64,000 nucleotides of DNA. It comes from Chiloscyllium plagiosum (taxonomy: Eukaryota). Below are positions 4,796-51,729 of this stretch, one piece after another. Within the stretch, counting starts at the first letter, position 1. Each line of letters starts with the position of its first letter. The translations under genes were made by a program, and so were the position numbers. The notes beneath the pieces were generated by a model. It saw only the letters and a program-made list of their open reading frames with translations. It was not told where the DNA came from and did no database searches. The DNA lies in the NCBI RefSeq assembly GCF_004010195.1, contig NC_057758.1:6472650-6536649 (forward strand), given 5' to 3'.

Positions 4796-4799
4796 GTAA

Positions 4800-6034: not shown

Positions 6035-6688
6035 CCTGTTGAGCTCTCTGTCACATAATCATCATAAAATTGTACAGTTCTATAAGTGAGACATTTTTAC
6101 GATCGTGTATGTTCTGGTGCTGGAATGTGCTGTCCAGCTCGCCCCATTTGCCAGTATTATTTTGATCCCCCATCTAAATTAATTCCATTGAACTCCACAT
6201 GAAGCTCTCTTTTGAAACCTGCTGTTGAATGAGCCTCCGCCACTCTCCAAGCCAACGCATTCCAAATCCCAGCACCTATCTGGGTAAATAAGTTACAGAG
6301 ATATTGACTTTGGGATCATTCCATTCTTACGCGTGTCAAAATTGTCGATGGATTTTCACTCCCTGAAGGAAAGCTGCTTGGGTAACTCACAATTGCTCAC
6401 TCCAATGCCTCACAGTGAGATCGCACTTCTTAGTTGTCAGTAAACTGTACCAATATGAGGCTGGACATGGAGAACTGCACACAGTTCTGGATTGCACGAA
6501 CAATTATTGGAACACAGTTCAAGCAATATGTACCCTTACAACTCCAGGAATGTCTGGTTAGAACAGCAAGGGTGAAATCTGCAGTGTTCTGGCATTGTGT
6601 ATCTGAGTCAGGTGGCAGGTGAATGTCCTATCGCATCTGACTGTTAGCATCAACGAGTCTTTATTTTTCTTTTTATTTTCTCTCCTAG

Positions 6689-6810
6689 CGCCAATATTTT
6701 CATGTATTTTGGAAGGGAGTTACTGCAGCAGCGTACCATGTGAGAAGAGTATTTCAACGAGGGTTAACGGAATGTGCCCCATCTTACAAGTGTGTTGCGT
6801 ACGTTTGTGA
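6689..6810 (+). CDS. Beta-defensin exon 2 (mature peptide), paralog A; its exon 1 is not present in this contig
   Basis: Polypyrimidine acceptor ttttctctcctag|cg (phase 1). Encodes xPIFSCILEGSYCSSVPCEKSISTRVNGMCPILQVCCVRL* = C-x6-C-x4-C-x11-C-x5-CC. AATAAA at 6951-6956. Confidence 0.8.
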
Positions 6811-7094
6811 AATCGAAGAAGGAAAGAGCAACATGAAACAATGGAAAACATCTGTGTTTCTGATTGGAGAGTTCTGTCATCCCATCATTCAGGCTTCATG
6901 TTATTGTTTCAACTGAATGACCACTGGCCCACTGCTTTCTAAACTACATGAATAAAACTGGGTGATATTGCAAACATTGATTTTCCAAGTCTCACTTCAC
7001 TTTCATATCAATGTCTAAACACAATGTCAGGAAGGAAGGAAGTTGTCAGAAAATGGGTATTATGCATTGATGATCTTTGCACTGTCGTAGCTTA

Positions 7095-7880
7095 GCTGAC
7101 ATGTGGGGCTTTGGTGTGGCCACAACTGGAGGATCGTTTGCAGTTCAGGTCCCCACACCATAGGAAGGATGTAAACGCTTTGGAGAGGCAGGGAAAGTGG
7201 TTTACCAAGATGTTACTTGGATCAGAGTCTACTGGTTACCAACAGCCTTTTGACAAAATTTGGATTGTTCGTGGTCGGGATTTGGAGCTGAGAGGCGATT
7301 TGAAGGAAGTATATAAAACAATGAGGGGCTTGGATAGGTTGCCTAGCCGGACTCTATTGCCCAGGTTGGAAATTTATGGGCAATGTTTTAAGGTGGGGGG
7401 ACATGTTAAAATGATAAGCATGGGACAGTTTTTGTTCAACAGAGAGAGTTGTAAATGTCTACAAAGGATTGCCAAAGAAGGTGGTGGATTTGCATAGAAT
7501 AGCAAAATTGTCAGGCAATTAGATAGATGGAAGAACAGGCAATGTGTACAGCGTTATGGACCATGTGAAGGCAGATAGGATTAGTTTGGAATAGTACACT
7601 TGTCTTCACAGACATATTGCAGAACGGTTTGTTCCTGTGCTGTACGCTTCTCTCTTCAATTGAGCATTTTAGCTTCGGTGAGAGGCTGGATATAAACGGA
7701 TTGTTTTCATTGGATCAGAGACAATATTGGGCAGGCCTGTTTCATGTGAAGAGGTTCATGAGGTGCAAGAAAGAGTCAACAGTAAGCAGCTGCTTTCCTC
7801 AGTCCAATGAGGGGACACAATTGGGAATTGAAAAGCATACGATCCAGACGGGCGTTGAAGGTAATCTCCTAGCTGTTCTG
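7095..7880 (+). mobile_element. Decayed CR1 LINE 3' fragments
   Basis: LVWPQLED..QF.SPHHRKDVNALER, LRGDLKEVYKTMRGLDR. Confidence 0.8.
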
Positions 7881-8149
7881 AATCTCTGATCGAACAGACA
7901 CCAACAGCAGCCCGCGGACAACGTAATTGGCTCGTTGTCCACTATTTTCTTTGGGGAAGGGGAGCGTGATGTTCCATTCAGTGGGACGTTTTCCCATCTC
8001 CAATACATCACTCTCCAAGCTCCAGGACTGGAGGGGAGTTTGAAGGCGCACTGGGAAGTAGCAGGAGAGAAAATGTGCGCTGCTTGCTATTATACTACCG
8101 AGAGAACACCAGTCACGTCACTTCTTCAATCATCACAAAAGTAGATTTA

Positions 8150-8650
8150 CAGTCTCATATAGTGGCAGTGTAAGTCGGTGATAATGATAAGGTTGTGGGT
8201 GTGGATGAACTTGTGAAGACAGTACAAGTTAGTAGCAGTCACAATACCAGATGGCTGGCCGCAGATGTGTAGACACAGAAGAACAGCAATAATATCAGTG
8301 TTATGCAAATGGAGTTACTGTTGGAAATTAAGCAGATCAGTGATAACCACGGTAATGTGAGTCTCGTGTTAGCTGTAGAAACAGAGCAGGTCACTGGGAA
8401 CCATAGTATTGAGGGTCTGTAGTCAATTGCAGGGAATGTCTATGTCAGCGGTAACGACAGCACCTTGACTCTAGTTAATATGAATTTAAATGCTGTGGGA
8501 ATGGATTCACATGCAGATACAAAGCAGGTCACTGATAACCAGAGTGTTGTGAGGATCGAATCACATGCACAGATCGACCATATTAGGGTTGACCATAATG
8601 CTGTTGTTCAGAACCATGTAGATACAGAACAGTTCAGCGGTACAGTACAG
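8150..8650 (+). repeat. Degenerate ~54-bp minisatellite array
   Basis: agcaggtcactgataaccagagtg / gagcagatcagtgataaccacgg units. Confidence 0.7.
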
Positions 8651-8659
8651 ATCAGACAC

Positions 8660-11600
8660 TACAGATCCGGCAGAATGAGGAGAGGAAGTTAGAAAGAAAC
8701 TGAAGAGCAGGACTGCAACAATATTAATCTCTGAATAGCTGCCAGGGTGACATATTGGTGTTGCAAGGAATAGAAAGATAGTGGAGATGAATACTTGGAG
8801 AAAAAACTGATGCAACGGGCATGATTTTTTTGATCTTGGATCAATGGAAGCTCTCCTGCTGCCAGGGTGAACTGTAAAAGAGGCACTGATTGCTCCAAAA
8901 GTGGAGAGCAACCAATATCCTCGCTGCAACTTTCGCTCATACTACATGGGAGTGGTTAAACTAGACTGGCAGGGGATGCAATTACAGCAGCAGAACAACA
9001 AGTGGAGAGATTGACGGGAAGGCAGGTGCTAAGACCAGTGAATCAGAAAGAAATGACAAGCAGAGAGGGGTGAATGAACACAACAGCACTCATGGTCTAA
9101 CGTGTGTTCACATCAATATAAGTAGTATTAAATGTAAGACAAATCAGTTGTAGAGCCTGGATCAGTACATAAGACTAAGATGTTGCGCACACTGCAGATA
9201 CGTGGTTGAGAGAGGGAATGGAAAGGCTCCAGGATTTCGTTGGTTTAGTCGAGATAGAGAAGAAGGTAAAAGATGTGTAGAAGTTGTATTAGTAATCAGT
9301 CAGAATGTTACATCTTCACTCTGAGAGGAAATGCAGAAGGGCACATCCGTTGAGGCAAGAGGGGTAAAACTGAAAATTTAGGTGGGTGCAAACAATCTGC
9401 CAGGATCCTAACGTAGGAACTTCAACTGCAAATGGGAACAAATATGTGGCCGATTATGGAACGATTCGACAACAAAAGAATTTTCGTAATGGGTGACTTT
9501 AACTTCCGCAATATTCATTGTGACTCCCTTACAGCAAGAAATTGAAACAGAGTGGACTTCCTTAAATGCATGTAAGTGTGTTTATTGAAACAGTATGTGG
9601 ATAGCCCAACTGGCAGAGGGGCCATAGTGTAACTTGTATTGGCTAATGAGCCTGGTCAAGTGACTGACCTTTCAGTGGGAGAGCCTTTTGAAAACAATCA
9701 TCAAAGTTCGTTACGTTTTAAGACAGTTATGAGCAGGGAGAAGTCAGGACTTCCGGTTAGGTACAAAAATGGTGGAAGGTAATTTACATCAGCATGAGAT
9801 AGGAGCTAAGGAACTTTAATTGGGAGACACAGTTATCCGGCAAGACAACATTTAAACATGTGGGAATTTGTGAACATCTGGTGTGGAGACTTCTGGACCG
9901 ACATGTTCCAGGAAGGTGGACGGACAAAGGTAGCAAGGTAAGCGACATTTGAAAACGAGGGTGGCTGTGAATTTGTTCAAAAGAGAAAAAGATGCATGTG
10001 TAAGTTTTAGGAAGCTAAAATTGTACGGGCCAATGAATATTTTTTTGGAAAGCAGGTAAGTACTAAAGAGGGGAACAAGAGACCAAGAAGGGGCCATGAA
10101 ATGTCCTTGACAATTCAAGGAAAAGAGAATCCAAAAGAGTTCTATACATATATTAAGAATAGAAGTCTAACTCAGGAGAAAGTAGGACAACTCAAGAATA
10201 CAGGATGGCACTCATGTTTGGAGGCAGAGGATGCTTGAGTTCCAAAGTGAATAATTTGCATCACCATTCTCTCCGTAAAACGACATGGAGAATAGGGAGA
10301 TATGTGTGGAGCATGCCTATAGGCTAGAACATTAAAGAACAAGAAAGTGGTGGCGTTGGATCCCTTGAAGAGTATTAATGCATATAGCTTCGCAAGGCCT
10401 GATGATAGCAACTCCAGTTTATTCGGTGAAGGAAGTGAGGTGATTGCTCAGGCTTTGACCAAAAAAGTGGTCCTCTCGAACCACTTAAGAGATCCCCGAG
10501 GATTGGTGAGTAGGTTATGTTTTCCCCTATTCAAGAAGAGAAGTAGGGATAATCCAGGAAATTATCAGCGAATAAATCTCACATCAGTGGTTGGAAACTA
10601 TTGGAGTGAAATCATACGAATAGAATTTACGCACGTATGGAAAAGCATGACATAATTAGGTGGAGTCGACATAACTTTGTGCATTGCAGGTCATGCCTCA
10701 CTAAATTAATTGATCTATCTGACGAGGTCTCAAAGGTAATTGGTAAGGGTAAACCCGAGGATTTGCTTACATGGACTTTAGTTAGGCTTTCGACAAGTAC
10801 CCACATGGAAGACCCATTCTGAAAATTAAGATGAATGGTTTCCACGGGGACTTGGCCGCTTGGATTGACAATTAGGTTGTCCGTCGAAGGCAGAGAGTGA
10901 TGGTGGAATGGTGACTTTCCGGCTGGAGTTCCATGGCTAATGGTTTTCTCAAAAGATCCGTACTAGGACATCTACTATTTTCTGTTATATGTAGCTGAAT
11001 TAGATTAAATTTACATGAGTAGGTGAGTACGTTTGCAGATGATACAAAGATCGGTGGAGTTGTGGATAGTACAGAGTTTTGTCAAAGGATACTGGGATAT
11101 ATATATCAGTTGCAGTTATTGGCAGAGTAATGGCAGATATAGTTTAATCTGTATGAGTGTGAGATGCGGCAATTTGGGAGATCAAACCTTACGGAAAAGC
11201 ATGCCGTTAATAGCAGCACGCAGAAGAACATTGATGTATAGAAGGAACTTGAGATTCAAGATCTTTGCTCCCTGAAAGTGGCCATGCAAGTAAATAGGTG
11301 GTAAATTAGTCATATGCTGTGCTTGCCTTGACTGGTCAGGGAAATGAGTTCAATATGCCATGTTGCAGCTTTCTAGAACTTTGGTAAGACCACACTTCGA
11401 GTGCCACATTCAATTGCGGTCGCCACATTACATGAAGAATATGGTTGCTTTGGCGAGGGTGCAGATGAGATTTACTAACATGCGGCTTGGATTACAGAGT
11501 TTGATCGATAAGGAGAGGTGAGCAAAATCTCACATTGTTTTCCCTTAAAGAGAAGAGACTGAGAAAAGTCTAGATAGATGTCTGTAAAAATATGAGATGA

Positions 11601-11910
11601 CGAGATGGGGTTAACACACAGAATCATTTCCACAGAATAGAAAAGCTCTATGCTAAGAAGCAGAAGGTGAGGGTGAACGTTCACAGGAGACGTGGTGGGC
11701 AGGTGAGTAAAACAGAAAGTGGTAGGATTCTGAAATGTACTGGCAGGGATGGTAGTGGAGGCAGTAGCGGTTAGGGTACTTAGGGGACGTTTAGATAAGC
11801 ACATGAATATGTAACGAATGGAGAGATATGAAGCAAGGGCAGACATAAGGGATTAGTTCCGCTTGGTGTCATGTTCGGCACAACATTATAGTCTGATGGG
11901 CTCATTAGTA
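8660..11910 (+). mobile_element. Long decayed CR1 LINE (ORF1 3' end, endonuclease, reverse transcriptase, 3' UTR)
   Basis: VMGDFNF endonuclease motif, PLFKKRSRDNPGNYQRINLTSVVG, FADDTKIGGVVDS, LVRPHxEC; many stops. Confidence 0.85.
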
Positions 11911-11924
11911 TCTGTGAAGTTCAG

Positions 11925-14115
11925 TGTCCTATATCAGTGATAACAACAATGCAGCAGACAGAATCAAATTTACAGGCAGAGCAAATCAGACCAACACTCA
12001 GTCGTGTTGGACTGCAGTCAGATGTAATGACGAGCAGGTCGGGGAAACTACAGTGGTATTGTTCTGGAGTCAGATGTAGAGACAGAGTATGCCATTGGTG
12101 CTCACAGTGCTGTGGGTCTAGCGTCATAGAATGATACAGTTAAAAAACAGAAACTTTGCACCAACTCGACAATGCCGAAAAGATATCCGAAATTTATCGA
12201 ATCACTTTTGGCAGCATTTGCCCCATAAATGCTTCCGATTCAAATCCACAACCAGATGCCTTTTAAATTTTGTAGCTTGTGCAGTCTTTTACACATCATC
12301 CGGCAGTTCATTTCGTGCATGCACCATCCTCTAGGCGAAAGGAAGATGCCCCTCAGGTCTCGTTTAAATCGTTTTGCTCTCAGCCTGAAACAGTGGTTCT
12401 TTCGTTCGGTCTCGGCTACCGTGGAAAAAAGGCAAACACTATGCACCCTATCCATGCCCATCATGATATTTTAAACTTTTATAAGGTCACCCATCAGCTC
12501 CAGGAAACAGGAAGAATCAGCCTCTTGAGACGAATGTTCAATGACAAACCCGCCAAAAATGACGATGTACTTATAAATCTTTTGTGCTACACACAGGGCT
12601 GCGGGTTTGGAGTTACATACAGAGACAGATCAGACGAGTCGTAACTGCAGTTCTCTGGAATAGAATCACGTGTAGATTCACAGTAGATCAATGGTAGCCA
12701 CAGTGCTGTGTGTCTGGAGTCACGTATGGAGACAACTTAAGTCGGTGGAAATCACCGTGTTCAGCTCTGGAGTCACGTGCAGAAACAGAGTAGATCATTT
12801 CGAAGCAATTTTTTCCCACTGTTCTACTTGCTGAGACAGAGTTGGTCAATAATGCACTCAGTGCTATGGCCCTGTAGTCCCAGAGCAGGTCAGTCACAAC
12901 CACAGTGCTCTCAGTCTGAAGTAAACTGTGCAGACAGCGCGGGTGGGTACTGACCACAATTCTGTGGGTTGGAGTCAAATGCAGGTGCAGTGCAGATGAG
13001 TGGTAACCAAAGCACTATGTGTTGGGACTTATAAGTAGAGAAGGAGCAGGTCACTGGAAACCATATTGCGGTGTGGCTTGACTCGCATTTATCGACAGAG
13101 CAGTTCAGAAATGACACTTATGCTCTCCTTCTGGTGTCACACGTAGAGCTAGTGTCGAACAGTGGTACCCACAGTGCTGTGGGTTCAGAGACACAGAGAC
13201 AAAGCAGATAGTGGTAACGACGATGCCGTGGGTCTGGAGTCACGTACTGAGCAGTTCAGTGGTCGTCACCATGCTGTGGGTCTGGAGTCACATTAAGAGA
13301 CAGAGAAGATCAGTATATTGACAGTGCTGTTGGTCTGGAGTCAGATTAGTGATAGAGCAGATTAGGGATAAACAGAGTGTTATGGATCTGGAGTCACATA
13401 TAGATTGTGCAGTTGACTGATAACCACGGTGCTTTTGCTTTGGAGTCAAATCCAGAGTGAAAACAGGTCAGGGGAAATCATTGCGCCGTTGCTCTGGAAA
13501 GAGATGTTGAGACAGAGTAGATAAGTAGTACCCATAGTGACGTGGATCTGCAGTCATAGTTCATAGAAATGTACAACATAGAAACAGAACCTTTCGTCAC
13601 CCATGACGATCAGATCGCCGAAATTTATCGAATCACATGTGCCAATATTTGGTCCATATCCCTCCAAACCCCTCTTATTTAAAATCTCACTCAGATGTCT
13701 TTTAAATGTTGTAATTGTAGCAGACTCCAACACTTGCTCCGCCAATTCATTTCATGGTCGCACCACACTGTGAGTGAAAAACATGCCATATCCGTTTGAA
13801 CTCCAATAACCTGGGGTAAAGACATGGACTATTCACCATACCCATGCCTCCCATGCTTTTATAAGCTTCTGTAAGGTTCCGCCGAAGCCTCTGACACTCC
13901 AGAGAACAAAGCAACATCAGTGCCGCGATGTGTCTGGAGTCATATGCAAAGGAGAAACGTAGTATTGGGAACCACAATGATGTGGATGTGTCGTCGCGTA
14001 TACAGACGCAGAATGTCAGTGGTAATCACAGTGCTGGGAGGCAGGCATCACTTGGTGAGACAGAATAAGGGGTAGTAAACAAAATGCTGCCGTTCTGGAG
14101 TCAATTGCTGACAGA
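11925..14115 (+). repeat. ~54-bp minisatellite array interrupted by minus-strand CR1 3' fragments (~12125-12510, ~13555-13910)
   Basis: ggagtca anchors at 13236, 13284, 13337, 13390 and 13442. Confidence 0.8.
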
Positions 14116-15120
14116 TATCCGTCCCTCAGAATTATTCGGGGATTCTGAGGAAGTTTCCCACAATGACCTTCAGGAGATTACCATTAAGCAACTATTCCTG
14201 CCACAATTTTAATGAATTCAAATTTGTCCATCTGTCTCAATGCCATTCGAATCTACATCTCATAAGGTTTTCAGTGAAACGTCTGAAGGAGCTCAGCACG
14301 TTTTGTTTGTTCCCTACATCATAATGTTACAAGAAGACATGTCACTCGTATTCACGCCAGAGGTTTTAGACCAATAACACAGATTCTACAAGGGAGTGAA
14401 TGAATGAAAACTGGATTGGTAGGGGGCATTTTGCAGAAAATTTTCAAGGCAGCAAAAGCAATGCTGGCTTCAAATCTTGGGACTGCAAAATGAGGGCACA
14501 GAAGTTCTGGTTCGATTTCACAAAGCTCTGCTAACGCACGATTGGGATTACTGTGAGCAGATATGTGAACCGGATCTCCAGAAATGTGATATTGACATTG
14601 GAGCAAGTAAATTGCATGCGACAAGAATGATTTCTGCACTTCATGAGTTACGTTATCAGGAGGCCTGCATTCTCTTTAATTTAGAAGGTTAAGGGATGAC
14701 CTAATTGATGTGTTCAATGGGTGATCAGTAAACGGCAGTGTATACAAAAATATTGTGATGTAGGTCCATCGAGTCAATTACGACCCTCTGAAGTACATCC
14801 GGACCAGACGACATCTTCAGCCTCCCCCTTTACACTTGGATTCCCCATGGATAATCCAACAATGCAGTCCATCTCCAAAATGTGGGAGGGAACCAGAGAA
14901 ATCAGAGGAAAGCAAACAATTATGAGGTGAATGTGAAAACTCCACACAGTCAGTTGTGCATTCGTGAAATCAAGTCTGTGTCCTGGTAGTGTGAGACAGT
15001 AATGCTAACTACTGAACTATTGTGCTGCGTAATGAACGAATCTGAGGTGATGTCAATATTCTTGCGGGCTGACATGATATAACATAATATAATACAATAA
15101 CAAAATATAATGATATAATA

Positions 15121-15331
15121 TGGATGTCGGTTTGCTCGCCGAGCTGGAAGATTCGTTTCCAGATGTTTCATCACCATACTAGGTAATATCTTCAGTGAGC
15201 CTCTGAATGATTCTTCATTCGGAGGCTCTCTGAAGATGTTACCTAGCATGGTAACGAAACGTCTGAAAACGTCAGCGAGCAAACCTATATCCAGAATGTC
15301 AACCTGAGCTACAAACGTTCTCAAGACTCGC
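15121..15331 (+). mobile_element. Second-family Penelope-like palindromic insert with a hammerhead-like core (15230-15263)
   Basis: Inverted arms ~15121-15210 and 15213-15292; CTGAAGA-t-GTTACC-tagcat-GGTAAC-GAAAC-GTC; inserted in an (ATAAT)n tract. Confidence 0.65.
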
Positions 15332-15418
15332 CCTGATACAATTTAATGATATAATATAGTATAATGTAATATGACATGACATAATGTAAGACATAATGTC
15401 ATATGACATGACATAATG

Positions 15419-15742
15419 GTGGGCGGCACGGTGGCACAGTGGTTAGCACTGCTGCCTCACAGCGCCTGAGACCCGGGTTCAATTCCTGCCTCAGGCGACT
15501 GACTGTGTGGAATTTGCACGTTCTGTCCATGTCTGCGTGGGTTTCCTCCGGGTGCTCCGGTTTCCTTCCACCGTCCAAAAGATGTGCAGGGTCAGGTGAA
15601 TTGGCCATGCTAAATTGCCCGTAGTGTTAGGTAAGGGGTAAATGTAGGGGTATGGGTGGGTTCCGCTTCGGCGGGTCGGTGTGGACTTGTTGGGCCGAAG
15701 GGCCTGTTTCCACACTGTAATGTAATCTGTAATCTAAAAAAA
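15419..15742 (+). mobile_element. Young full-length HE1-like SINE
   Basis: A box tggcacagtgg, B box ggttcaattcc, LINE-derived 3' end gggccgaagggcctgtttccacactgta and a taatct/A tail; near-identical to the 37281 copy. Confidence 0.9.
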
Positions 15743-15799
15743 TAAGGTAATATAATATAACAAAATGTTACCTTCTTTATTTCTCCAGTTTTGACCTCC

Positions 15800-17480
15800 T
15801 CATCTGAGGAAGAACGTTCATGGAGTCAGTTCATTAAAGGTGCACCAAACTGATTCCTGAGTTGGTGGGACTGTTCTATGAAGAACGATATGATCAGTTT
15901 GGATCGTCTTCACTGTGGCTCGGACTTAAGCGGCAGAGAGTGGGAATTCTCAGAAAATCAGATCATGACCTCATTGGATTGCAGAACGAGGCTCGAGGGG
16001 GCTGAATGTCCTGAATTTAATAAATTCTAATAAGACTATGTTGGTTGAAAGCAGAAAAGGGTGTTCCCGATAACCAAAGGACTTCTGAACCAAATGGGGT
16101 CTCAGTCGAAGGCAAAGACGTTAGGCCATTTTCGACTGAGGAACGGGAAGTTTCCTGTCCAAGTGAGTAGGGAGACTATTGAATTATCTACTGCTGAAAG
16201 CAGTGAAGGAGAAAACATTGACCTTTTTGTTTGAAAATAGTTTGATATGGTTCGTGGAGCTCAATTGATCAAAGTGTACGGGGATAAAGCAGTAACAGGG
16301 ATTGTGTTGAACGATCAGCCAAGGTCACATTGAATGGTGTAGCAGTCTCGAATGGTTGAATGGTTTATTCCTGCTCATAGTTTCTATGTTTCTCTGTGAA
16401 ACCAATAAATCTGTGATTCATTCGTGAAAGGCTGAATAACTTAGTTCCAAGCAGACAGAATGGCAACCGACAATCAATCTGTTCCACGAAAATGGTAAAT
16501 ATTTGACAAGATGAAATAACATTCTGGCAACATTAGGTGGAAGTTTCAGAAACTAATAAAAAGTGACATAGCAAGTGGACAGCTTTGACTAGGTACATCA
16601 TTTAATGTCTGTTAACGGAGGAAGGAATAATATTCTGTTTCATCTCGTTCGTATGTCAGCAATAAGGGATTGATGCGTGTAAGATTGTCAGCAAGAGAGG
16701 TGGGAGTGAGAAGAAAAAAGCAGGGATGCACTTCTGAGGCTTTATAAGTCTCCAGTCGGATTAGACCACATTTTGACTATTGTGAGCGATTTTGGTCCCA
16801 TACGTCAAGAACAATTATCTCAGGAATGAAAGGATTAACATGTGGGGAACGTGTTCGGACTATAGGTCTGCATAGTGTAGAGTGATGCGGCTGGTGGGGT
16901 GGGGGTTGGGTGGGCGATCTCATTGAAACGTAAAGAATATTGAATGGCCGGAAAAGAGTGCATTTTGGGAGATGTTTTCATTTGCAGGAGAGACCAGAGT
17001 CGGAGTGTACAGGCTTAGAGTGAAGTGAAGACTCTTTACCGCGGAGATAATAAAATATTTCATTAGCCACATCATTGTGAATCTGTGGAATTCATTGCAA
17101 CAGGAGCCTGCCAAGTTCAGGTCATTGAATATATTTAAGAAAGAGATTGATAGGTTCACCATTGTTAATGGGATCAAGAATTACTGGGAGAAGGCGAGAG
17201 ATTTTTTGAGAACCTTACCAGCCATGGTTGAATGGCAGAGCAGACTCGATGGTCTCAATTTCTGCTGATTTGTCTTCTGGTCTTATGTTCCTTATCATCC
17301 ATTTCTTCCAGAAAATTGGAAAATTACATTATATGAGAAGATACGGAGACAAATATGACACAACTCTAGTTAGCTTAAATTCTGTCATTTCTAACATGTT
17401 AGATTCTATTACAAAGGAAGTAACAGCAAATACTTTAAACATTGACAATATCGTCCTATACACTCGGCACCAATTTAGAG
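15800..17480 (+). mobile_element. Cluster of decayed CR1 LINE fragments
   Basis: Repeated CR1 3' motifs such as VNLWNSL..FKKEIDRF and ctcgaatggttgaatgg tails. Confidence 0.7.
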
Positions 17481-17902
17481 TAGATTTAGTGGTAATGTCA
17501 TATGTGTTGTTATACACTGAAAAGTGTTGTTTTCTGTGCCATACAGAAAGGTCATACCACCAAAGAACAGTACAGTAACATAACAGAGTGCAGATTTCAA
17601 AGTTCAGCTTCAGACCAGCATCAGAGGAAACTTAGCATGAGAATTTCAGAGGCCTGCTTAGAGGTATGTTAGTAAAGTATAAAACGTTGTTCTTGAATCT
17701 GTTGGCACGTGAATTAAACATTTTAATATTCTGACCGTCGGAATAGGATGGAAGGTAGTATAACCTGGGCAATAGAGTCAAAATATTTGGGTATTTATAT
17801 TGCTAAGTTATTACAGAATAATCGACTTAACAGGAAAACAGATTATTGCTCAGAGTGTGCAGTTCAAAGTCGATCTCTGTTGTGGTACTGCAGTCATGTG
17901 TA

Positions 17903-18032
17903 TTCCTGATGAAGGGCTTTTGCCGGAAATGTCAATTTTACTGCTCCTTGGATGCTGCCTGAACTGCTGTGCTCTTCCAGCACCACTAATCCAGAATCTG
18001 GTTTCCAGCATCTGCAGTCATTGTTTTTACCT
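17903..18032 (+). mobile_element. Right half of a palindromic Penelope-derived insert (left half deleted; intact homolog at 51483-51725)
   Basis: ttcCTGATGAagggcttttgccgGAAATGTC...gcatctgcagtcattgtttttacct. Confidence 0.75.
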
Positions 18033-18039
18033 AGTTCAA

Positions 18040-20265
18040 TAATCAATGCCCTGACTAATGAAGGCGCGTGTTCCAAAAGCCCTCTGCACTGCCCTGGCTA
18101 CCTGTGACTCCACTTTCAGAGAACTGTGCACCTGAAATCCAAAGTCCCTCTGTGGCAATCCGTTCCTTAAAGCCCGACTATTCACCATGGAACACAGACC
18201 TTGATTTGACTTTCCAAAATGCAAGACCACACACGTATCTGTATTAACTATTATTTGCCATTTCTTGGCCCACTTCCCAAGATATCAAAGTTCTGCTTCC
18301 ATTTCTGACAATCTTCCTCACCTTCCACCATACATTTTTTTATTTTAGTGCCGTAGAACTTTGAACATGAAACAGTACAGGCCTTCTGGCCGTCAATGTT
18401 ATGTGAAACCCATCTGAAGCCCAATCAAACTCCACCATTTCAGTTTCCTCCAAATGAAAACGCAATGACAATTTAAATGCCTTTAAATTTGGTGAGTCCA
18501 CTATTATTGCAGGAAGTGCATTCCACGCCCCTACTACTATCTGAGTGAAGAAACTCACTCGGGCATCTGTCCTTTTTCTGCCAACCTTCAATTTACAGCA
18601 ATGCCCCCTCGTGCGAGCCAACACCATCTGAGGATAAACAAAGCATTCGCTGTCCACACGATCCAACCCTCTGATCATCTTATAAGTCTCTACCAAGTCC
18701 CCCTGAATTCTGCTCAGCAAGGAAAACAGCCTTAAGTCCCTCAGACTTTCTTCGTAAGACCTTCCCTCCATACGAGGCAGCATCCTCGGAAATCTCCTCT
18801 GAAACCGTTCCCAAGCTTCTACGTTTTTTCCAATAATGCAGTGACCAGAACTCTCCATAATAATCCAAGTGCGGCTGCAAAAGGGTTTTGTACCCCTGCA
18901 GCATGACCTCATGGTTCTGAAACTCAATCCCTATACAAGTAAAAGCTAACAATCCATATGCCTTCTAAACAACTGCATCAACGTGTGTGTCAACTTCCAC
19001 GGATCTATGTACATGGACACCGAGATGTCTCTGCTCATCTACACTACCATAAGCTGAGAACTCTGCATTGCTATTGCTCCTTCCAAACTTAAACACCCGA
19101 CAATTTTCCGCATTAAATCCATTTGCAACTCTCAGCCCAGCTAGGCAGCGGACCTGAGAGCCTCTTAAACCAACAACATTCTTTTCCACTATCCACAACT
19201 CTAAGGAAGGTAGAGTCATTAGCAGTTTTAACAACCCATTCTTCTGGGCCGTAATGCAGGTCGTTTATAAAATGGCAAGCAGCAGTGGACATAAAACAAA
19301 TCCTTCATGAAAAGCGCTAGTAAATGAACTCCAGGATGAACAATTCCCATCAACCTCCACCCTCTGTCTTCTTTCAGTCAGCTAAATTCAGATCCAGACC
19401 GCTAAATCACTCCCAATCACATGCCTCTGTATTTTGCACGGTAGGGCACCTGGTTAAACGACTTATTTAAATTCATATGCACCACACTAACCACTTTCCC
19501 CTCATGCACCTATTTTGTTGCCTTCTGAAAGAACTCAATCAGGTTTGTGAGGCACGGCCTATCTTTCACAAAGCCCTGTTGACTATCCTTATTCAGCTTA
19601 TTCCTTTCCAGATGATTATGCATCGTCTCTCTTATAACCTTTTCCAACATATTAACCACAACCGAAGTCAGGTTCACTGGTCTCTCATTCCCAGAGTAGT
19701 CTCTACTCCCCTTCTTGTCCGGGGAAAAACATTTTCTATCCTCCAATCTTCTGGCACTGTACCGGTGGAAAATGATGACATAAAGATTAAAACCAATCTC
19801 CTTCCTGCCTTCCTAATGATTCCTATGATAAATCTCATCCGGCCCAGCGAGCTTATCGATTTTTACATTTGTGAGAATTGCTAACACCTCCTCCTTGTGA
19901 ACCTTAATTTATCCAGACTCGTAGACTCCGTAGCAGTATTTTCCTCAATAACATCATCTTTGTCTGCTGTGAATACTGTCAAAAAATACTCATTTTGCGC
20001 TTCCCCTATCTCCTTGGAATTCACGCCGAACTTCCCAGTACTATTCTTGTTTGGCCCTAGTCTGACGATCATCATTCTTTTATTCCACGGATAATGAGAG
20101 ATAGCTTTAGGTTTACCTTTGATAATATCCGCCAACGACATCTCGTGTCTCCTCCTGGCACTTCTAATCTATTCCTTTAGTTCTTGCTTTGCTAATTTGG
20201 AAATCACAAGTGCCTTAACTGAACATTCACATCGCATTGCAACGTAAGTCTTTTTCTTCCTCTCG
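18040..20265 (-). mobile_element. CR1 LINE reverse-transcriptase fragments (two pieces)
   Basis: Minus ORFs ...RIQGDLVETYKMIRGLDRVD...VVGAWNALP, RPVNLTSVV, QQGFVKDRPCLTNLIEFF; tail at ~18354. Confidence 0.9.
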
Positions 20266-20962
20266 ATAAGACAGTCATGATCGAACTTATTAATCATGTC
20301 GTATACATTCGCATCCAAATCATTGATATTGATAACAAAGAGTAATGGGCCCAGCTCCGATCTCTGAGGCACCTCACTGTTGTTTTGAGGATTAATCCAT
20401 TGACATGTGGGTCCAAGTCTCTCTCTCTCTCCAGCTCTCTCCCTCTCTCTCTCTGTTTGTTACTGTTGTATTGGAAACCATGCCCTCTGCTGAGCCCAAA
20501 TGACATTGCACGATAAGAAGAATTCAACAAAGAGTGGGACTTGTTCAGTTTTCACGGTTGCCTCATTAATCCAATGATTTTTTTTTGTTGACAGAAATCA
20601 ATTCAGTCTGTCCTTCGCAATTTAATCAAAGAGAGTATTAACAGATTAAGATGGACATGGGCAATGGTGACCGTCCCGCACCATTGTGTTCCCTCCAGGA
20701 GCTTTCAATGATATCTAGCTTAAAACCTGTGAGAGTCCATCAGAAAACATTGCAAGCTACTGAAATGGTAATAAGATTCATCTGAACTTCTCCAAAAATG
20801 GCGTCAAGCAGAAATGCTTGCATGTAGTTGCAGGGTAAATGCATGCCGTTACGAATGATGCCCAATGACAAATTATTTACTTAATGCAGAAGAAGTATAA
20901 GTAGTTCAGCTCAAGGGAATGTTTCAGACTGTGGTGTCTCAGTCCTTGCACCTTACTTCTCG

Positions 20963-21140
20963 AGTGTGTGTGCTTGTGTGTATATGTGTGTGTTTGTGTC
21001 GGTGAATGTATGTGCATATCTGTGTCTGTGTGTTGGCGCCTGTGTGTGTATTTCTGTGGGTGTGCGTGCGTGTATGTGTGTGTCCGTGTGTTTTCTGTGT
21101 GTGTGTGTGTGTGTGTATAATTCTGTGATGTTTGTGTTGG
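20963..21140 (+). repeat. Imperfect (TG)n microsatellite
   Basis: Direct inspection. Confidence 0.9.
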
Positions 21141-21194
21141 CGCACTTGTTTTTCTGACTGAATCCCTTATGTTTTTCGATGATGTCTGCCGCAG

Positions 21195-21546
21195 GCTGTG
21201 CAGTGGTTTCAGAAACACCCAAATGGAGTGATTTCATCGCTTCAAACACCACACAGTCAGACCTGCCCATGCCCCCACACGCATGCTTATAAAGCAATAT
21301 TGTGTGATGTAGATTGGAGTAAATTAAAGCTCGATGGAGTTCCTGCAATTCGACAAACTTGTCAATCTTGGCGTAGTAAGCCTGATAAATTGCAGACAGG
21401 ATTTGAAGCGAAATCACTTAACACAGAGAACTGTTCCCTGTCAGGTTTCCAGACTCATTCCGAGAGAACTGAAGTGTGTCCGCAGCCCCTCAGTCCTACA
21501 GGTCATGTCATATTCCTGAAGGGACTGACCACACCTTCATTTCCAA
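21195..21546 (+). pseudogene. Decayed Ig V-set (VJ-type) exon
   Basis: Acceptor ccgcag|gc (phase 1) and donor gtaggc. With frameshifts: VVSETP...TVxLPC-x14-W(SK)...NCSL...G-T-x-T-x-LHF; ~352 nt. Confidence 0.4.
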
Positions 21547-21593
21547 GTAGGCAATTCGATATGTGACCTAAACGCCAGGAATGAAAAGAATGT

Positions 21594-21665
21594 TTCTCGT
21601 TCTTATAGTGGTTAGTAACCCGATCTGTAAGGTGGTAATCTAAGATTCAATTCCCTGAAGAGGCA
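21594..21665 (+). pseudogene. tRNA-Asp-derived pseudogene
   Basis: 72 nt aligning gap-free to vertebrate tRNA-Asp(GTC) (TCCTCGTTAGTATAGTGGT..CTGTCAC..GTTCGATTCCCCGACGGGGAG, recalled). Anticodon now GTA, stems broken, no T-run terminator directly downstream. Confidence 0.7.
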
Positions 21666-22110
21666 AGTGAAATGATTTCATTTAAACAATGAAAACAGCG
21701 ACATTTGAATTAAATTTTGATCTGGAAATCTTGGCCACAACGATCGCTCACTGGCGACAGACACGGGAAGTTTCTGTTTGAATCAGACACAGCAGGCCGG
21801 AACAATAGACTGAGAGGAAGGGCACGCCGCTTCAAATTCCAGAGGACATCTCCGTGAGCCTTTTCACACTTGGCTGAATCGGAATTTCTGGAAATCCAAT
21901 GAGCTGATCCCTTGAATTCACGACCATTTGCTGGAGCACTATCGTATTGAACCAAGAGTCACCGCCATTTCGAGTTAATGTTGAGCATACGGGCAGAATT
22001 CACGCATAATCTGACAGTTATCGAGTATCTAATAAACAGTGACAGGGACATGACAGATTAAACCAATTGTAACGTCTGCTGCCACTTTTTTTCTTTTTAT
22101 TTACTTTTAG

Positions 22111-22349
22111 ATGGTAACCGTTCATTATCCTGTCACTTCAGACCCAAATTCAGTTCCTTCACTTCTTTCATTCGTCTTAAATTATTGGAGAAAGCATTCC
22201 AAGTCCCATCCTGAAAAAAGAGTTAAATACATGGACATAATCCGTCAGGAGTGCAAAAAGTAACAGGGACCTGAGCGCTGAGTGAATTTTAACCTCGTGT
22301 ACAACACCAGACACTTTGAAATAAACTCTATCATACGCACTGACAGCCG
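22111..22349 (+). pseudogene. Decayed Ig C1-set-like exon
   Basis: Strong acceptor ttttttctttttatttacttttag|at and donor ccg|gtaaga. Reads DGNRSLSCHF...NTWT*SVRS (NxDGTYSVxS-like)...TSC...TL; contains stops. Confidence 0.4.
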
Positions 22350-23439
22350 GTAAGATACAGAGGCAGAATGAATACCGCAATGAGTGCATGTCCAGAAACA
22401 GAATCCCACACTCCTAGGCATTCATGAATCTGACAGTGAGAGGCGGGGAGAAATCCTTAGTCAAGTACAGAAGCAGGCACTGGATAATGCAGGAGAAATT
22501 CTATATTCGCTTGTACTACCTGAGATTGACAGAAATGGGCACAACCTGCTGCACTTGTCAACGCACAAGACAGTTTGCACGAATGCCAAACAAAATCCGT
22601 TGAATTAATGTCTGAATCTCTACTTTTCGATTGTAAAAGAATTCAGACATCGAAGTGAAAACAGTATTTAACTATGTTACAACTTGTCCTTGACTGTATA
22701 AAGTGTCCCAGAGAGCTTTGGCCATCCCTGTCTTTGAAAAAAGGGCCCGATTTACGTAATCAATTAATATGTGCATGCGCTTCTCTACTTTGTAATCTGC
22801 ATTGTTAAGGACTGCGAGGACATTTACTGCCCGGAACTGAGGACTCTGACTGAATTGTTCAAGTTTACATTTGATTTCAGTATTACAGAAACAAGCCAGT
22901 TTGACCTTAGTCTGTGTGGATATATCTATTCTATTGCTGAAAGTATCAGAGTCAAGCAGCAGAAATTTCAAGAAACTGTAAAGGACTGTTTCCCTTGTTA
23001 AACGGTTGCAAATTAAGTCCACCAGTTTTTTTTTTCAGAAATGTAACAACATTTCTGACGGGTTTCTAAGAACGTGGCTGATATTACATGAGACAATGTA
23101 ATTCACAATCAGAACTGAGGGCTAGTCCAGTCAGTTCACAGTGACAAAAATTTGCAGAGAGCGAGAGAATACAATAAAATAAGAAACTTGAACGTTCATA
23201 GGGGACGTGATGGGCAGTTTTGTAAAACAGAATGTGACAGGATTTTGGAATGCACAGACAGGGATAGTGGTGGGGGCGGTAACGATTCGGGTACTTAGGG
23301 GACGTTTAGGTAAGCACATGAATATGTAAGGAATTGAGGGATATGAAGCAAGTTTAGACATAAGGGATTAGTTCCGCTTAGTGTCATGTTTGGCACAACA
23401 TTATGGGCTGATGGGCCCATTAGTGTGATGTGCAGTTCT

Positions 23440-25740
23440 GTGTCCTGTATCAGTGGTAACAACAGTGCAGCGGATAGAATCAAATTTACAGACAGAGCAG
23501 ATCAGTGCAACACTCAGTCGTGTTGGTCTGGAGTCAAATGTAAGGACGAGCAAGTCAGGGGAAAATAAGGTGGTATGGTTCTGGAGTCAGATGTAGAGAC
23601 AGAGTATGCCATTGGTGCTCACAGTGCTGTGTGTCTAGCGTCATAGAATGACACAGTTAAAAAACACAACCTTTGCTACAACTCGGCCATGCCGAAAAGA
23701 TATCCGAAATTTATCGAACCTCATTTGGCAGCATTTATCTCATATCACTCTAATTGCTTCCTATTCAAATCCACAACCAGGTGCCTTTTAAATATTATAA
23801 TTGTTGCAGTATTTTACATTTCCTCTGCCAGTTCATTTCATGCATGTGCCATCTTCTTGGCGAAAGGAAGTTGCCCCTCAGGTCTCGTTTAAATCATTCC
23901 CCTCTCAGCCTGAAACAGAGGCTGTTTCCTTTGGTCTCCACTACCGTGGAGAACAGACAACAGTTTTCACCCTATCCATGCCCATCATGATGTTTTAAAA
24001 ATTCATAAGGTCACCCATCAGCTCGAGGGAAAACGAAGAATCAGCCTCTTGAGTCTAATCCTCAACGGCAAACCCGCCAAACGTGACGATATCCTTATAA
24101 ATCCTTTGTGGTACCCACAGAGCTGTGGGTCTGGACTTACATACAGAGACAGATCAGACGAGTCGTAACTGCAGTTCCATGGGCTGGAGTCACGTTTAAA
24201 TTCACAGCAGGTTAGTGATAACCAGAGTTCTGTGGGTCTGTTGTCAAATATAGAGAGAGAGAGCAGGTCAATGGTAGCCACAGTGCTGTGGGTCTGGAGT
24301 CACGAATGGAAACAACTTTAGAGAGTGGTAATCACCGTGTTCAGCGTCTGGAGTCAAGTGCAGAAACAGAGGCGATCATTTCTAAGCATAGTTTTGTTTC
24401 CCTATGTTACTTTTTGAGACAGAGTTGGTCAATAGTGCACTCAGTGCTATGGCCCTGTAGTCACAGAGCAGGTCAATCATAACCACAGTACTGTGAGTCT
24501 GAAGTCACCTGTACAGACAGCGCCGGTGTGTACTGACCACATTGCTATGGATCTGATTCGAATGCAGGTACAGTGCAGATGAGTGGTAACCAAAGAGCTG
24601 TGTTTTGGGGCTTATACGTAGAGAGGGAGCAAGTCACTGGAAACCACAGTGCGGTGTGGCTTGACTCGCATTTTGAGACAGAGCATTTCATAAATAACAA
24701 CTATGCACTCCTTCTGGTGTCACATGTAGAGCCAGAGTCGAACAGTGGCACCCACAGTGCTGTGGGTTCAGAGACACAGATACAAAGCACATGGTGATAA
24801 TGACGATGCCGTGGGTCTGGATACCAGTACTGAGCAGTTCAGTGATAATCACCGTGTTGTGGGTCTAGAGTCTCAGGATGATACAGGGAAGATCAGTATA
24901 TTGACAATGCTGTTGGTCTGGAGTCAAATTAGTGATAGAGCAGATTAATGATATACAGAGTGTTATGGATCTGGAGTTACATATAGATTGTGCAGTTGAC
25001 TGATAACCACTGTGCTTTTGGTTTGGAGTCAAATGCAGAGTGAAAACAGGTCACGGGACATCATTGTGCCGTTGTTCTGGAAGGTGATGTTGAGACAGAG
25101 TAGATCAATAGTACCCAAATTGACGTCGGCCTGCAGTCATCGTTCATAGAAACATGCAACAGAAAAACATAACCTTTAGTCACCCATGACGACCAGATAT
25201 CTTAAATTTATCGAATCACATGCACCAATATTTGGTCCATATCCCTCCAAACCTTTCTTATTTAAAATCTCACTCAATGTCTTTTATTTGTAGTAATTGT
25301 AGCAGACCCCAACACTTGCTCCGCTGGTTCATTTCATGGTTGCACTACACTGTGAGTGGAAATAGAATTGCCCATTTTATGTCTATCCCCTCACACTGAA
25401 AAGCATACCATATAGTTCTGGGCTCCAATAAACTGGGGGAAAGTCATGAACTATTCACCATACCCATGCTTTTCATGTTTTTATAAACTTCTGTCAGGTT
25501 CCCGCGAAGCTTCTGATGCGCCAGGGAAAAAAAACAACATCAGTGCCGCTGTGTGTCTGGAGTCACATGCAAAAGGAGAAAGTAGTATTGGTAACCACAA
25601 TGTTGTGGGTGTGTTGTGTGTGTGTGTGGGAACGTCAGTGGTAATTGCAGTGCTGGGAGACGGGCGTCACTTGCGGAGACAGTACAGTTGGTAGAAAACA
25701 CAATGCTGCCGGTCTGGAGTCAATTGCTGACAGATATCCG
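23440..25740 (+). repeat. ~54-bp minisatellite array with CR1 fragments; older duplicate of ~11925-14115
   Basis: ggagtca at 24296 and 24350 (54 apart); same CR1 interruptions as the 12-14 kb block. Confidence 0.8.
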
Positions 25741-26034
25741 TCCCTCAAGCGTAATCGGGGAGTCTGAGGAAGTTTTCCACAATGACCTTCAGTAGATTAC
25801 CATGAAGCAACTATTCCTTCCACAATTTTAATAAATTCAAATGTGTCCTTCTGTCTCGATGCAATTCGAATCTACATCTCATAAGGTTTTAAGTCGAAAT
25901 TCTGGAGAAGCTTAGCATGTTTTGTTTGTTCCCTAAATCAATCTGATGTGTTACTTATTACAAGAAGATATGCCACTCGTTTTGTCACAAGGGTTTTTAG
26001 ATCGATAACACAGATTCTACAAGGGAGTGAATGA

Positions 26035-33803: not shown

Positions 33804-33867
33804 ATGATGTTGGCGACCCTGTTATTCCTACTTGGAAGCCTGGTATATATGGAAGCCACCACAATTG
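33804..33867 (+). CDS. Beta-defensin exon 1 (signal peptide)
   Basis: MMLATLLFLLGSLVYMEATTI plus G|GTAAGT phase-1 donor; CATAAA at ~33762; alternative in-frame ATG at 33774. Confidence 0.7.
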
Positions 33868-36815: not shown

Positions 36816-37232
36816 ATCATCAAATCGAAGAGCAAGTTTGACTGGCAAAACGGCCGCCTTCTGCACATCCAATTCCTTGTCCAGTGTCTGCAAATGGATG
36901 CAGGTTGAAAAACTTCGTGGAATCTGAGTTTCTCCAAGTGGGAATTCTGTTCTCGACGCGTTATTAGTGAGCTGGCATAATTGATCATGACTCAAGACGT
37001 CTGTTCTCTGAGGTCGTGTGCCGACTCACAGATATCAATCTCATTTAATCCCGGTCTTGAAGCATCCTTCCTTATCGATATCTGTTGAGTTCGCTGTCAC
37101 ATAATCATCATATAATTGTACAGTTCAAATAGGACATTCTTACAATCGTGTATGTCCTGATGCTGGAAAGTGCTGTCCATCTCGTCCCATTCGCCAGTAT
37201 TATTTTGATGCTCCATCTGAATTCATTCCATT

Positions 37233-37604
37233 GTGGGCGGCACGGTGGCACAGTTGGTGGGCGGCACGGTGGCACAGTGGGTGGGCGGCACGGTGGCACA
37301 GTGGTTAGCACTGCTGCCTCACAGCGCCAGAGACCCGGGTTCAATTCCCGCCTCAGGCGACTGACTGTGTGGAGTTTGCACGTTCTCCCCGTGTCTGCGT
37401 GGGTTTCCTCCGGGTGCTCCGGTTTCCTCCCACAGTCCAAAGATGTGCAGGGTCAGGTGAATTGGCCATACTAAATTGCCCGTAGTGTTAGGTAAGGGGT
37501 AAATGTAGGGTTATGGGTGGGTTTCGCTTTGGCGGGTCGGTGTGGACTTGTTGGGCCGAAGGGCCTGTTTCCACACTGTAATATAATCTAATCTACAAAA
37601 CAAA
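37233..37604 (+). mobile_element. Young HE1-like SINE with a triplicated 24-bp 5' head; absent from copy A
   Basis: Units start at 37233, 37257 and 37281; empty site ttccattg|aactccacat at ~6190. Confidence 0.9.
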
Positions 37605-38102
37605 AACTCCACATCCAGCTCTCTTTTGAAACCTGCTGTGGAATCAGCCTCTGCCCCTCTCCAAGGCAACGCATTCCAAATCCCAGCACCTCTCTGGTTA
37701 AATAAGTTACAGAGTTATTGACTTTGGGATTGTTCCATTCTTACGCTCGCCAAAATTGTCGAAGCATGTTCACTCCCTGAAGGCAAGCTGCTTGAGTACA
37801 TCACAATTCCTCACCCCAATGCCTCATGTGAGAACGCACTTCTCAGTTGTCAGTAGACTGTCCCAATATGAGGCTGGATGTGGAGAACTGCACACAGTTC
37901 TGGTCTGCACGAACAATTATTGGAACACAGTTCAAGCAATATGCACCCTTACAACTCCAAGAATGTCTGGTTAGAACAGCAAGGGTGAAATCTGCATTGG
38001 TCTGGCATTGTGTATCTGAGTCAGGTGGCAGGTGGATGTCCTATCGCATCTGACTGTGAACATCAACGAATCTTTGTTTTTTCTTTTTATTCCCTCTCCT
38101 AG

Positions 38103-38224
38103 CGCCAATATTTTCATGTATTTTGGAAGGGAGTTACTGCAGCAGCGTACCATGTGAGAAGGGTATTTCAACGAGGGTTAAAGGACTTTGCCCCATCTTA
38201 CAAGTGTGTTGCGTACGTTTGTGA
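38103..38224 (+). CDS. Beta-defensin exon 2 (mature peptide), paralog B
   Basis: Acceptor ttccctctcctag|cg. Encodes APIFSCILEGSYCSSVPCEKGISTRVKGLCPILQVCCVRL*, in phase with exon 1. AATAAA at 38366-38371. Confidence 0.85.
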
Positions 38225-43000: not shown

Positions 43001-43490
43001 GCCACATTACATGAAGGATATGGTTGCTTTGGCGAGGGTGCAGATGAGATTTACCAAGATGCGGCTTCGATTACAGAGTTTGATCGATAAGGAGAGGTGA
43101 GCAAAATCTCAGATTGTTTTCGCTTGAAGAGAAGAGACTGAGAAGAGACTAGATAGATGTCTGCAAAAATATGAGTTGACGAGATGGGGTTAACACACAG
43201 AATCATTTCCATAGAATAGAAAAGCTCTATGCTAAGAAGCAGAAGGTAAGGGTGAACGTTCACAGGAGACGTGGTGGGCAGGTTGGTAAAACAGAAAGTG
43301 GTAGGATTCTGAAATGTACTGGCAGGGATGGTGGTGGAGGCAGTCGCGGTTAGGGTACTTAGGGGACGTTTAGATAAGCACATGAATATGTCAGGAATGG
43401 AGAGATATGAAGCAAGGACATACATAAGTGATTAGTTCCGCTTGGTGTCATGTTCGGCACAACATTATAGTCTGATGGGCTCATTAGTGT
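40090..43490 (+). mobile_element. Long decayed CR1 LINE (duplicate of 8660-11910)
   Basis: Collinear with copy A. Confidence 0.85.
42166..42394 (+). mobile_element. Young palindromic Penelope-derived insert with hammerhead cores on both strands and a 13-bp TSD
   Basis: 94-bp arms (42166-42259 and 42267-42360, 1 mismatch); TSD acaaaggtaattg at 42153-42165 and 42395-42407; empty site at ~10731. Confidence 0.9.
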
Positions 43491-46400: not shown

Positions 46401-47057
46401 AGCACCAATTTAGAGTAGATTTAGTGGTCATGTCATATGTATTGTTATACACGAAAAAATGTTGTTTTCCGTGCCATACAGAAAGGTCATACCACCAAAG
46501 AACAGTACAGTAACATAACAGAGTGCAGATTTCAAAGTTACAGCTTCAGACAAGCAGCAGAGGAAACTTAGCATGAGAATGTCAGATGCCTGCTTAGAGG
46601 TCTGTTAGTAAAGTGCAAAACGTTGTTCTTGAATCTGTTGGCACGTGAATTAAACATTTAAATATTCTGACCGTCGGAACAGTATGGAAGGCAGTATAAC
46701 CTGGGCAATAGAGTCAAAATATTTGGGTATTTATATTGCTAAGATATTCCAGAATAATCGACTTAACAGGAAAACAGACTATTGCTGAGATTGGGCAGTT
46801 CAAAGTCGATCTCTGTCGTGGTATTGCAGTCATGTGTAGCCCAAAATGCGTGATGACTGCAGATTTCATTCAATGACGTGAGCCAAATGGACATTATTTG
46901 AAAAAGACCCATTATGAACAGGTTTGAGCAGCTATTATTTCCAATTTGCTTAAAATTCAAATATGACGCGAATCAATCGAATGGTGAATAATACCCAGTG
47001 GGCTAATGACCTGATTCTGTACCTACCTTCTCTGCTCTAACTTCGTGCCTGCCTGAG

Positions 47058-49392: not shown

Positions 49393-49439
49393 CAGCGAAT
49401 GAACAATCGATATATTTCACTTATACTTCATCCCATTCA

Positions 49440-51725: not shown

Positions 51726-51729
51726 AGGT

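What the first reader, a model, noticed from the sequence alone, without database searches (positions are those of the whole stretch)
6689..6956. Second defensin exon-2 paralog differs only in the C3-C4 loop
Seen: across 122 nt the two exon-2 copies differ at 4 nucleotides. These fall in three amino-acid-changing codons between C3 and C4 (S/G, N/K, M/L). All six Cys, the acceptor, the stop and the AATAAA are retained, while the flanks look more diverged. Inference: purifying selection on the scaffold with diversification of one loop, as is common in defensin families. The counts are too small for significance. The leader of this copy would lie upstream of the contig start.
Basis: partly seen in the sequence, partly recalled or inferred. 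Interest (0 to 1): 0.7.

Follow-up and report, generated by a model that had tools for sequence, protein, structure and literature searches.

The report
Duplicated shark defensin exon, selection unproven
This is the intact second exon of a duplicated gene for a small six-cysteine peptide that is likely a shark beta-defensin; its three amino-acid differences from the neighbouring copy all fall in one loop, but they are too few to tell selection from drift, and whether this copy is switched on is untested.

Summary
Copy A (6689-6810) and copy B (38103-38224) differ at 4 of 122 nt, in three codons between C3 and C4. Cysteines, acceptor, stop and AATAAA are kept. Both lie in a duplicated block of at least 20 kb, diverged 5.5% (707 of 12,934).

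Against that baseline the exon is not unusual (P=0.20; 28 of 104 flank bins are as conserved), though the nearest flanks are more diverged (7.9%, Fisher P=0.09). The scaffold is suggestively clean (0 replacement changes, 3.6 expected, P=0.03, post hoc). Loop diversification is not shown (P=0.06-0.18).

A's leader is absent because its contig, exactly 20,000 bp between gaps, starts 3.2 kb into the intron. Public contigs from two samples contain A-identical intron sequence and a deeper third copy type, so A is a real paralog. No A-type 3'UTR letters were seen. Splicing is untested.

The family label rests on cysteine spacing, B's leader exon and a weak language-model match; Pfam and fold searches found nothing. 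The scan noted this family before (45 notes in this genome). Verdict: an ordinary paralog in a family I found undescribed in print.

The parts
6035..26034 (+). Assembly piece of exactly 20,000 bp between two 500-N gaps; holds copy A of the duplicated block
   Evidence: N runs 5535-6034 and 26035-26534; length; collinear with 37082-55714 at 91-96% identity
6660..6688 (+). Polypyrimidine tract and AG acceptor of copy A (phase 1)
   Evidence: sequence
6689..6810 (+). Copy A exon-2 coding part: 2 nt plus 39 codons plus TGA, six Cys spaced 6-4-11-5-0, net charge +1
6742..6774 (+). C3-C4 loop (11 codons) holding all four A/B differences (6748, 6768, 6772, 6774)
6811..6956 (+). Predicted 3'UTR of copy A ending in AATAAA (6951-6956)
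   Evidence: sequence
33804..33867 (+). Copy B exon 1: 21 codons with a hydrophobic leader-like core plus one G, followed by a GTAAGT donor (phase 1); no second copy in the window
   Evidence: scan; blastn and tblastn
37082..55714 (+). Copy B of the duplicated block, as far as it aligns with the copy A piece
38103..38224 (+). Copy B exon-2 coding part, net charge +2; AATAAA at 38366-38371

Best explanation
The flagged stretch is the intact second exon of a likely beta-defensin gene inside a duplicated block of at least 20 kb; it is likely a minor working paralog whose first exon an assembly gap has cut off, with the cysteine scaffold likely held by purifying selection and the three loop changes likely accumulated by drift. 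Shown: the block duplication, the intact exon with its acceptor, stop and AATAAA, the 4 differences, and A-identical intron sequence in two public samples beside two other copy types. Inferred: splicing to a leader exon like B's (phase 1, 61-codon precursor in B), secretion, three disulfides, and action as a weakly cationic, hydrophobic host-defence or chemoattractant peptide. The N/K difference leaves A one positive charge lower than B (+1 vs +2), next to the G-x-C before C4.
For: Whole-block divergence is 5.5%, the exon 3.3%, P=0.20. The loop excess is not significant, P=0.06-0.18, and tight clusters are common in the flanks, 23 of 104 bins. The scaffold has 0 replacement changes against 3.6 expected, P=0.026. 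Homology runs to A's first bases and the piece is exactly 20,000 bp, so the missing leader fits an assembly cut. Contigs identical to A over 352 nt (X1) and 435 nt (X2) exist in two samples. The spacing fits the lizard beta-defensin motif (PMC12278569, passage). The top language-model hits are PF00711 clusters at 0.84 and 0.80 (a lead only).
Against: No leader for A was found. At six 3'UTR sites the contigs of both laid runs show only non-A letters, at depths of 675-2,623, while A-identical intron contigs have depth 8-12 (contigs drop rare variants and the run type is not on record). An intact frame is weak evidence of life: 27% of neutral simulations at full A-B divergence keep all Cys and the frame. 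Pfam, phmmer, PDB sequence search and both fold searches gave no defensin match.
Confidence: 0.5

Rival explanations
1. Copy A is a silent or dead passenger of the block duplication. Its exon is intact by chance or because it died recently, and the clean scaffold mostly reflects selection on B's lineage.
For: No leader is in hand. Only non-A letters were seen at six UTR sites in both laid runs. Neutral decay leaves the frame and Cys intact in 27% of simulations, and leaves 122 nt free of indels with P=0.69. Earlier notes report dead copies in this family (e1-8028741, e1-8166618; unchecked).
Against: Acceptor, stop, AATAAA and all 28 scaffold codons are unchanged. The leader's absence is explained by the contig edge. 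Contigs drop rare variants.
Confidence: 0.33
2. One reading: A is a live paralog whose C3-C4 loop was driven by positive selection towards a new target or activity.
For: All 3 changed codons lie in one inter-cysteine segment (P=0.02-0.04 allowing any segment). Only 0.5% of sliding flank windows have 4 or more differences all within 27 nt. A deep contig in X2 carries B's K-G-L letters, so N-G-M is probably new on A's branch (3 nt against 0.9 expected, P=0.07). In birds most selected sites lie within two residues of a cysteine (PMC4571063, passage), as the M/L site does and the N/K site nearly does.
Against: The loop rate is not above neutral at P<0.05 for copy A's site counts. There are no synonymous changes to compare with. 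Three of the 4 nt lie within 7 nt and may be one mutational or conversion event (31 such clusters in 12,934 flank nt). Expression is unshown.
Confidence: 0.13
3. Copy A is an assembly artefact: the other allele of B, or an error-rich duplicate placed next to it.
For: A piece of exactly 20,000 bp between 500-N gaps looks like a scaffolder cut (recalled behaviour of Hi-C scaffolders), so its position may be wrong.
Against: There are 5.5% substitutions, 40 small indels and several copy-specific inserts of up to 4.8 kb. A-identical contigs occur in two samples. X1 holds A, a B-like type and a third type together, more than one diploid locus allows if the sample is one animal.
Confidence: 0.04

Closest known systems
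Reptile beta-defensin clusters (Podarcis lilfordi, PMC12278569; Komodo dragon, PMC6716921)
   Same: Six-Cys spacing 6-4-11-5-0 fits C-X(6-7)-C-X(3-5)-C-X(8-14)-C-X(5-7)-CC. The leader is in exon 1 and the Cys motif in a later exon. Near-identical neighbours arise by tandem duplication, and some members are weakly charged.
   Different: The host is a probable shark. There is no Pfam or phmmer match to any of them, and flanking marker genes were not in the window.
Mammalian and avian beta-defensins (Pfam PF00711)
   Same: Two exons with all six Cys in one exon (PMC3978493, passage). The nearest language-model clusters are PF00711 (0.84).
   Different: The C3-C4 loop is 11 residues against 7-10 in the avian consensus (PMC4571063) and 8-10 in the motif quoted by PMC6716921. 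It does not reach the Pfam model. Net charge is only +1.
Teleost beta-defensins
   Same: Precursor length (61 codons in B) and charge fall in the reported 60-77 aa and +1 to +5 ranges (PMC3978493, passage).
   Different: Teleost genes have three exons with the Cys split over two; here all six are in one exon.

Membership tests
Vertebrate beta-defensins (broad definition) | Six-Cys motif C-X(6-7)-C-X(3-5)-C-X(8-14)-C-X(5-7)-CC | tested here: met
   Spacing 6-4-11-5-0; motif from PMC12278569 passage. The only two loose-motif matches in the window that end in CC with this spacing are A and B.
Vertebrate beta-defensins (broad definition) | Signal-peptide exon spliced to the Cys exon | tested here: inconclusive
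   B has a leader-like exon with a phase-matching donor. A's would lie beyond the contig edge. No spliced join was seen or tested.
Vertebrate beta-defensins (broad definition) | Beta-sheet defensin fold | tested here: inconclusive
   Single-sequence model pLDDT 68.6, pTM 0.36, strands at 3-8 and 34-39; the other four models scored 43-49. No match in either fold search.
Vertebrate beta-defensins (broad definition) | Disulfides C1-C5, C2-C4, C3-C6 | not testable with these tools
   Pattern from PMC6716921 and PMC4571063 passages; needs a peptide.
Vertebrate beta-defensins (broad definition) | Net positive charge (typical, not universal) | tested here: met
   +1 (A) and +2 (B) by residue count on the exon-2 peptide; weak.
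Vertebrate beta-defensins (broad definition) | Antimicrobial or chemotactic activity | not testable with these tools
   No assay possible.
Pfam PF00711 Defensin_beta | Score above the curated HMM cut-off | tested here: not met
   No defensin family at E up to 10 for either copy. Atlas similarity 0.84 and 0.83 is below 0.9, a lead only. Not filed as a Pfam member.
Canonical mammalian/avian spacing subtype | C3-C4 loop of 7-10 residues | tested here: not met
   The loop is 11 residues; consensus from passages.
Teleost three-exon beta-defensins | Cys motif split over two exons | tested here: not met
   All six Cys lie in one exon; teleost structure from PMC3978493 passage.

The most novel reading that the evidence does not exclude
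Copy A is a live member of a three-copy shark beta-defensin subfamily in which A alone rewrote the residues before C4 (K-G-L to N-G-M, losing a charge) under positive selection. That would be a natural minimal pair for finding which loop residues set target specificity, in a lineage where no defensins were found in print.
Probability: 0.13. Interest if true: 0.55.

Novelty: new member of a known kind. Interest (0 to 1): 0.3.

Why it matters
Taken alone this copy is an ordinary product of birth-and-death duplication, the pattern known from reptile, bird and mammal defensin clusters. Its value is as one more unannotated member of a beta-defensin-like family in a probable cartilaginous fish. A 2019 review's section on antimicrobial peptides lists no defensin for sharks or skates (PMC6795676, section 14), and five searches listed no paper on one. 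It also shows that this subfamily has at least three sequence types while the window holds two, so the assembly may under-count or misplace copies. If A proved live, A and B would be a three-residue natural pair for testing the role of the C3-C4 loop.

Tried and rejected
No whole genome is held for this window, so other genomic copies and A's leader could not be sought there.

One search scanned Pfam in the wrong frame and is void; one search repeats it in frame.

The homologue search found no candidate. phmmer over 1.84 billion representatives gave 1 hit, a 919-aa protein with 7 matched stretches and no Pfam family, taken as a cysteine-repeat chance match. The PDB sequence search gave 1 hit at E 0.81 to a peroxisome assembly protein, rejected. 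Foldseek and VIA-align found nothing on a middling 40-residue model, which is no evidence against the fold.

No RNA holder was listed. Two single-cell RNA runs, read at about 2 and 6 in 100, laid 0 reads on A's stretch; this is no test. Only 4 of the 16 listed runs were laid, and only on copy A's stretch; a lay over B's whole gene gave no result, so splicing and the nature (RNA or DNA) of runs X1-X4 stay open.

Rfam found nothing in B's intron insert. A third BLAST hit at 27-166 (minus strand, 79%) matches only the 3' non-coding part of the query and carries no Cys motif; rejected as a third exon. The contig left of the gap (1-5534) shares only two repeat matches with B's upstream DNA, so it is not A's missing intron. 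A long gene-conversion tract over the exon was considered: identity extends only 9 nt into the intron and 16 nt into the UTR, so it is not needed.

Full report
Observation. Copy A exon 2 runs from 6689 to 6810 and copy B from 38103 to 38224, both on the + strand. They differ at 4 of 122 nt (6748, 6768, 6772, 6774), in three codons, S/G, N/K and M/L, all within the 11-codon C3-C4 loop. There are no synonymous differences. The six Cys (spacing 6-4-11-5-0), the polypyrimidine tract and AG, the TGA and the AATAAA are present in both.

Setting. The two exons are not isolated paralogs. A self-comparison of the window shows 6036-25698 collinear with 37082-55714 in blocks of 91-96% identity, broken by copy-specific inserts. 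Six aligned blocks, exon excluded, differ at 707 of 12,934 positions (5.5%; K2P 0.057) with 40 small indels. Copy A sits on a piece of exactly 20,000 bp between two 500-N gaps. From memory, round lengths and 500-N gaps are typical of Hi-C scaffolder cuts; no call tested this. A's first bases align to B 37082, which is 3,214 nt downstream of B's exon-1 donor. A scan for ATG, hydrophobic core and phase-1 donor found B's leader exon at 33804-33867 followed by GTAAGT, giving a 4,235-nt intron and a 61-codon precursor. No second leader exon exists in the window, and the contig left of the gap is unrelated to B's upstream DNA apart from two repeats. So A's leader is missing from view, not shown to be lost.

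Is the exon more conserved than its flanks? Against the whole block, 6.7 differences are expected and 4 seen (binomial P=0.20, Fisher P=0.42), and 28 of 104 non-overlapping 122-nt flank bins have 4 or fewer. Against the nearest flanks, which happen to be more diverged (66 of 836, 7.9%), the result is borderline: Fisher P=0.09, binomial P=0.03. The choice of baseline decides the answer, and flank divergence is over-dispersed (mean 6.7, variance 9.6 per bin).

Scaffold and loop separately. The 28 scaffold codons show 0 replacement changes where 3.6 are expected (P=0.026) and 0 silent changes where 0.9 are expected (P=0.39). Empirically 1 of 106 flank bins, and 1.6% of sliding windows, are clean over the same 89 positions. 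This is modest support for purifying selection, weakened because the partition was chosen after the fact and because constraint on B alone would give part of it. In the loop, 4 replacement nucleotides against 1.4 expected gives P=0.058 with A's site counts (0.048 with B's), and 0.18 if counted as three codon events. The clustering itself is mildly unusual: three codons in any one inter-cysteine segment, P=0.02-0.04, and three codons within a span of 9, P=0.10. But three of the four changes lie within 7 nt, and such clusters occur 31 times in the flanks, in 23 of 104 bins. A loop free to drift inside a constrained scaffold explains everything; positive selection is not required and not excluded.

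Public reads. Sixteen runs were listed, four holding part of the stretch, none on record as RNA. Four were laid on 6035-7150. Two single-cell RNA runs gave 0 reads, which is no test. Contigs identical to A cover 6171-6522 (depth 12.5) and 6084-6518 (depth 8.4), so A's sequence is real in two samples. Other intron contigs have depths of 40-354, and 32 of the 40 shown letters match B. At 6836, 6841, 6918, 6921, 6947 and 6948 all depth carries the non-A letter in both runs. By counting, X2 record 16 (6865-7116, 10 differences from A) sides with B at 7 sites, with A at 10 and with neither at 3; X1 record 7 shows the same mixed pattern and is deeper than the B-like record 6 (500 vs 183). This is a third copy type, absent from the window. 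A contig of depth 1,181 in X2 carries B's letters just before C4, so N-G-M is probably derived in A. Depth rises about tenfold over the second half of the exon and the UTR, which looks like RNA with intronic reads. But summed contig depth is a poor measure, no joint or loose end appeared at the acceptor, and contigs drop rare variants, so none of this proves or disproves expression of A. Splicing was not tested.

What the peptide is. Pfam, a word-based homologue search, phmmer over 1.84 billion proteins and PDB sequences give no defensin. The ESM Atlas ranks PF00711 clusters first for both copies (0.84 and 0.83; all ten best family hits agree), which the tool rates as a lead only. The single-sequence model is middling (pLDDT 68.6) and matched nothing. 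The label therefore rests on the spacing, which fits the lizard motif in PMC12278569 (passages), on the two-exon layout with a leader in B, and on the Atlas lead. The 11-residue loop is one longer than the avian consensus (PMC4571063, passages) and the motif quoted in PMC6716921 (passages). All six Cys in one exon is the tetrapod layout, not the teleost one (PMC3978493, passages). The peptide is hydrophobic (GRAVY 0.7) and weakly cationic (+1 A, +2 B). That the host is a shark rests on my recall of the repeat types and on earlier AI notes, not on a call.

Likely working. Shown: duplication of a block carrying at least the 3' part of the gene, slow divergence, an intact exon. Inferred from the family: splicing of a leader exon in phase 1, secretion, removal of the signal peptide, three disulfides, and membrane-directed or chemotactic host defence at a surface tissue. 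I put 0.50 on a minor live paralog with a drifting loop, 0.33 on a silent passenger, 0.13 on positive selection in the loop and 0.04 on an assembly artefact.

Novelty. Five searches for defensins in cartilaginous fish (listings and abstract starts seen) showed no paper on one. PMC6795676 section 14 (read) names only transferrin, squalamine and kenojeinin I for sharks and skates, and PMC10707392 mentions defensin only in a reference (passage). Subscription journals are not covered and no supplements were read. The scan has 45 defensin notes in this genome, including one on copy B of this window and one pair whose exon diverged faster than its flanks; these are unchecked. This pair shows the opposite, an exon at or below the flank rate. 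It is a new member of a known kind, and the specific claim of loop diversification is unproven.

Noticed in passing
public contigs laid on window 6818-7116 (X1 record 7, X2 record 16): A third copy type, unlike both A and B, is the deepest type in both runs and is not in the window; B's own 3'UTR type is not seen at 6918 in X2.
   Followed up: partly
window 6035-26034: The piece is exactly 20,000 bp between two 500-N gaps, likely a scaffolder cut; its placement next to copy B may not be the true one.
   Followed up: partly
window 6191-25698 vs 37605-55714: Substitutions are asymmetric: A has A/T where B has G/C at 305 sites, the reverse at 237 (P=0.004); transitions are only 353 of 707. Unexplained.
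   Followed up: no
window 37234-37604 and 15418-15741: A SINE-like insert found only in B's intron has a 94.8% identical relative inside an insert found only in A, so the element was active after the duplication.
   Followed up: partly
window 42166-42395, 51483-51710, 58000-58170, 60710-60906: A family of short palindromic elements of about 200 bp; the one at 42166 is B-specific and flanked by a repeated target-like sequence.
   Followed up: no
window 35243-35362 and 35722-35841: A 120-nt inverted repeat, 97.5% identical, inside B's intron.
   Followed up: no
X2 record 15, at window 6851: A 2-nt deletion in the 3'UTR on a contig of depth 1,181, in neither A nor B.
   Followed up: no
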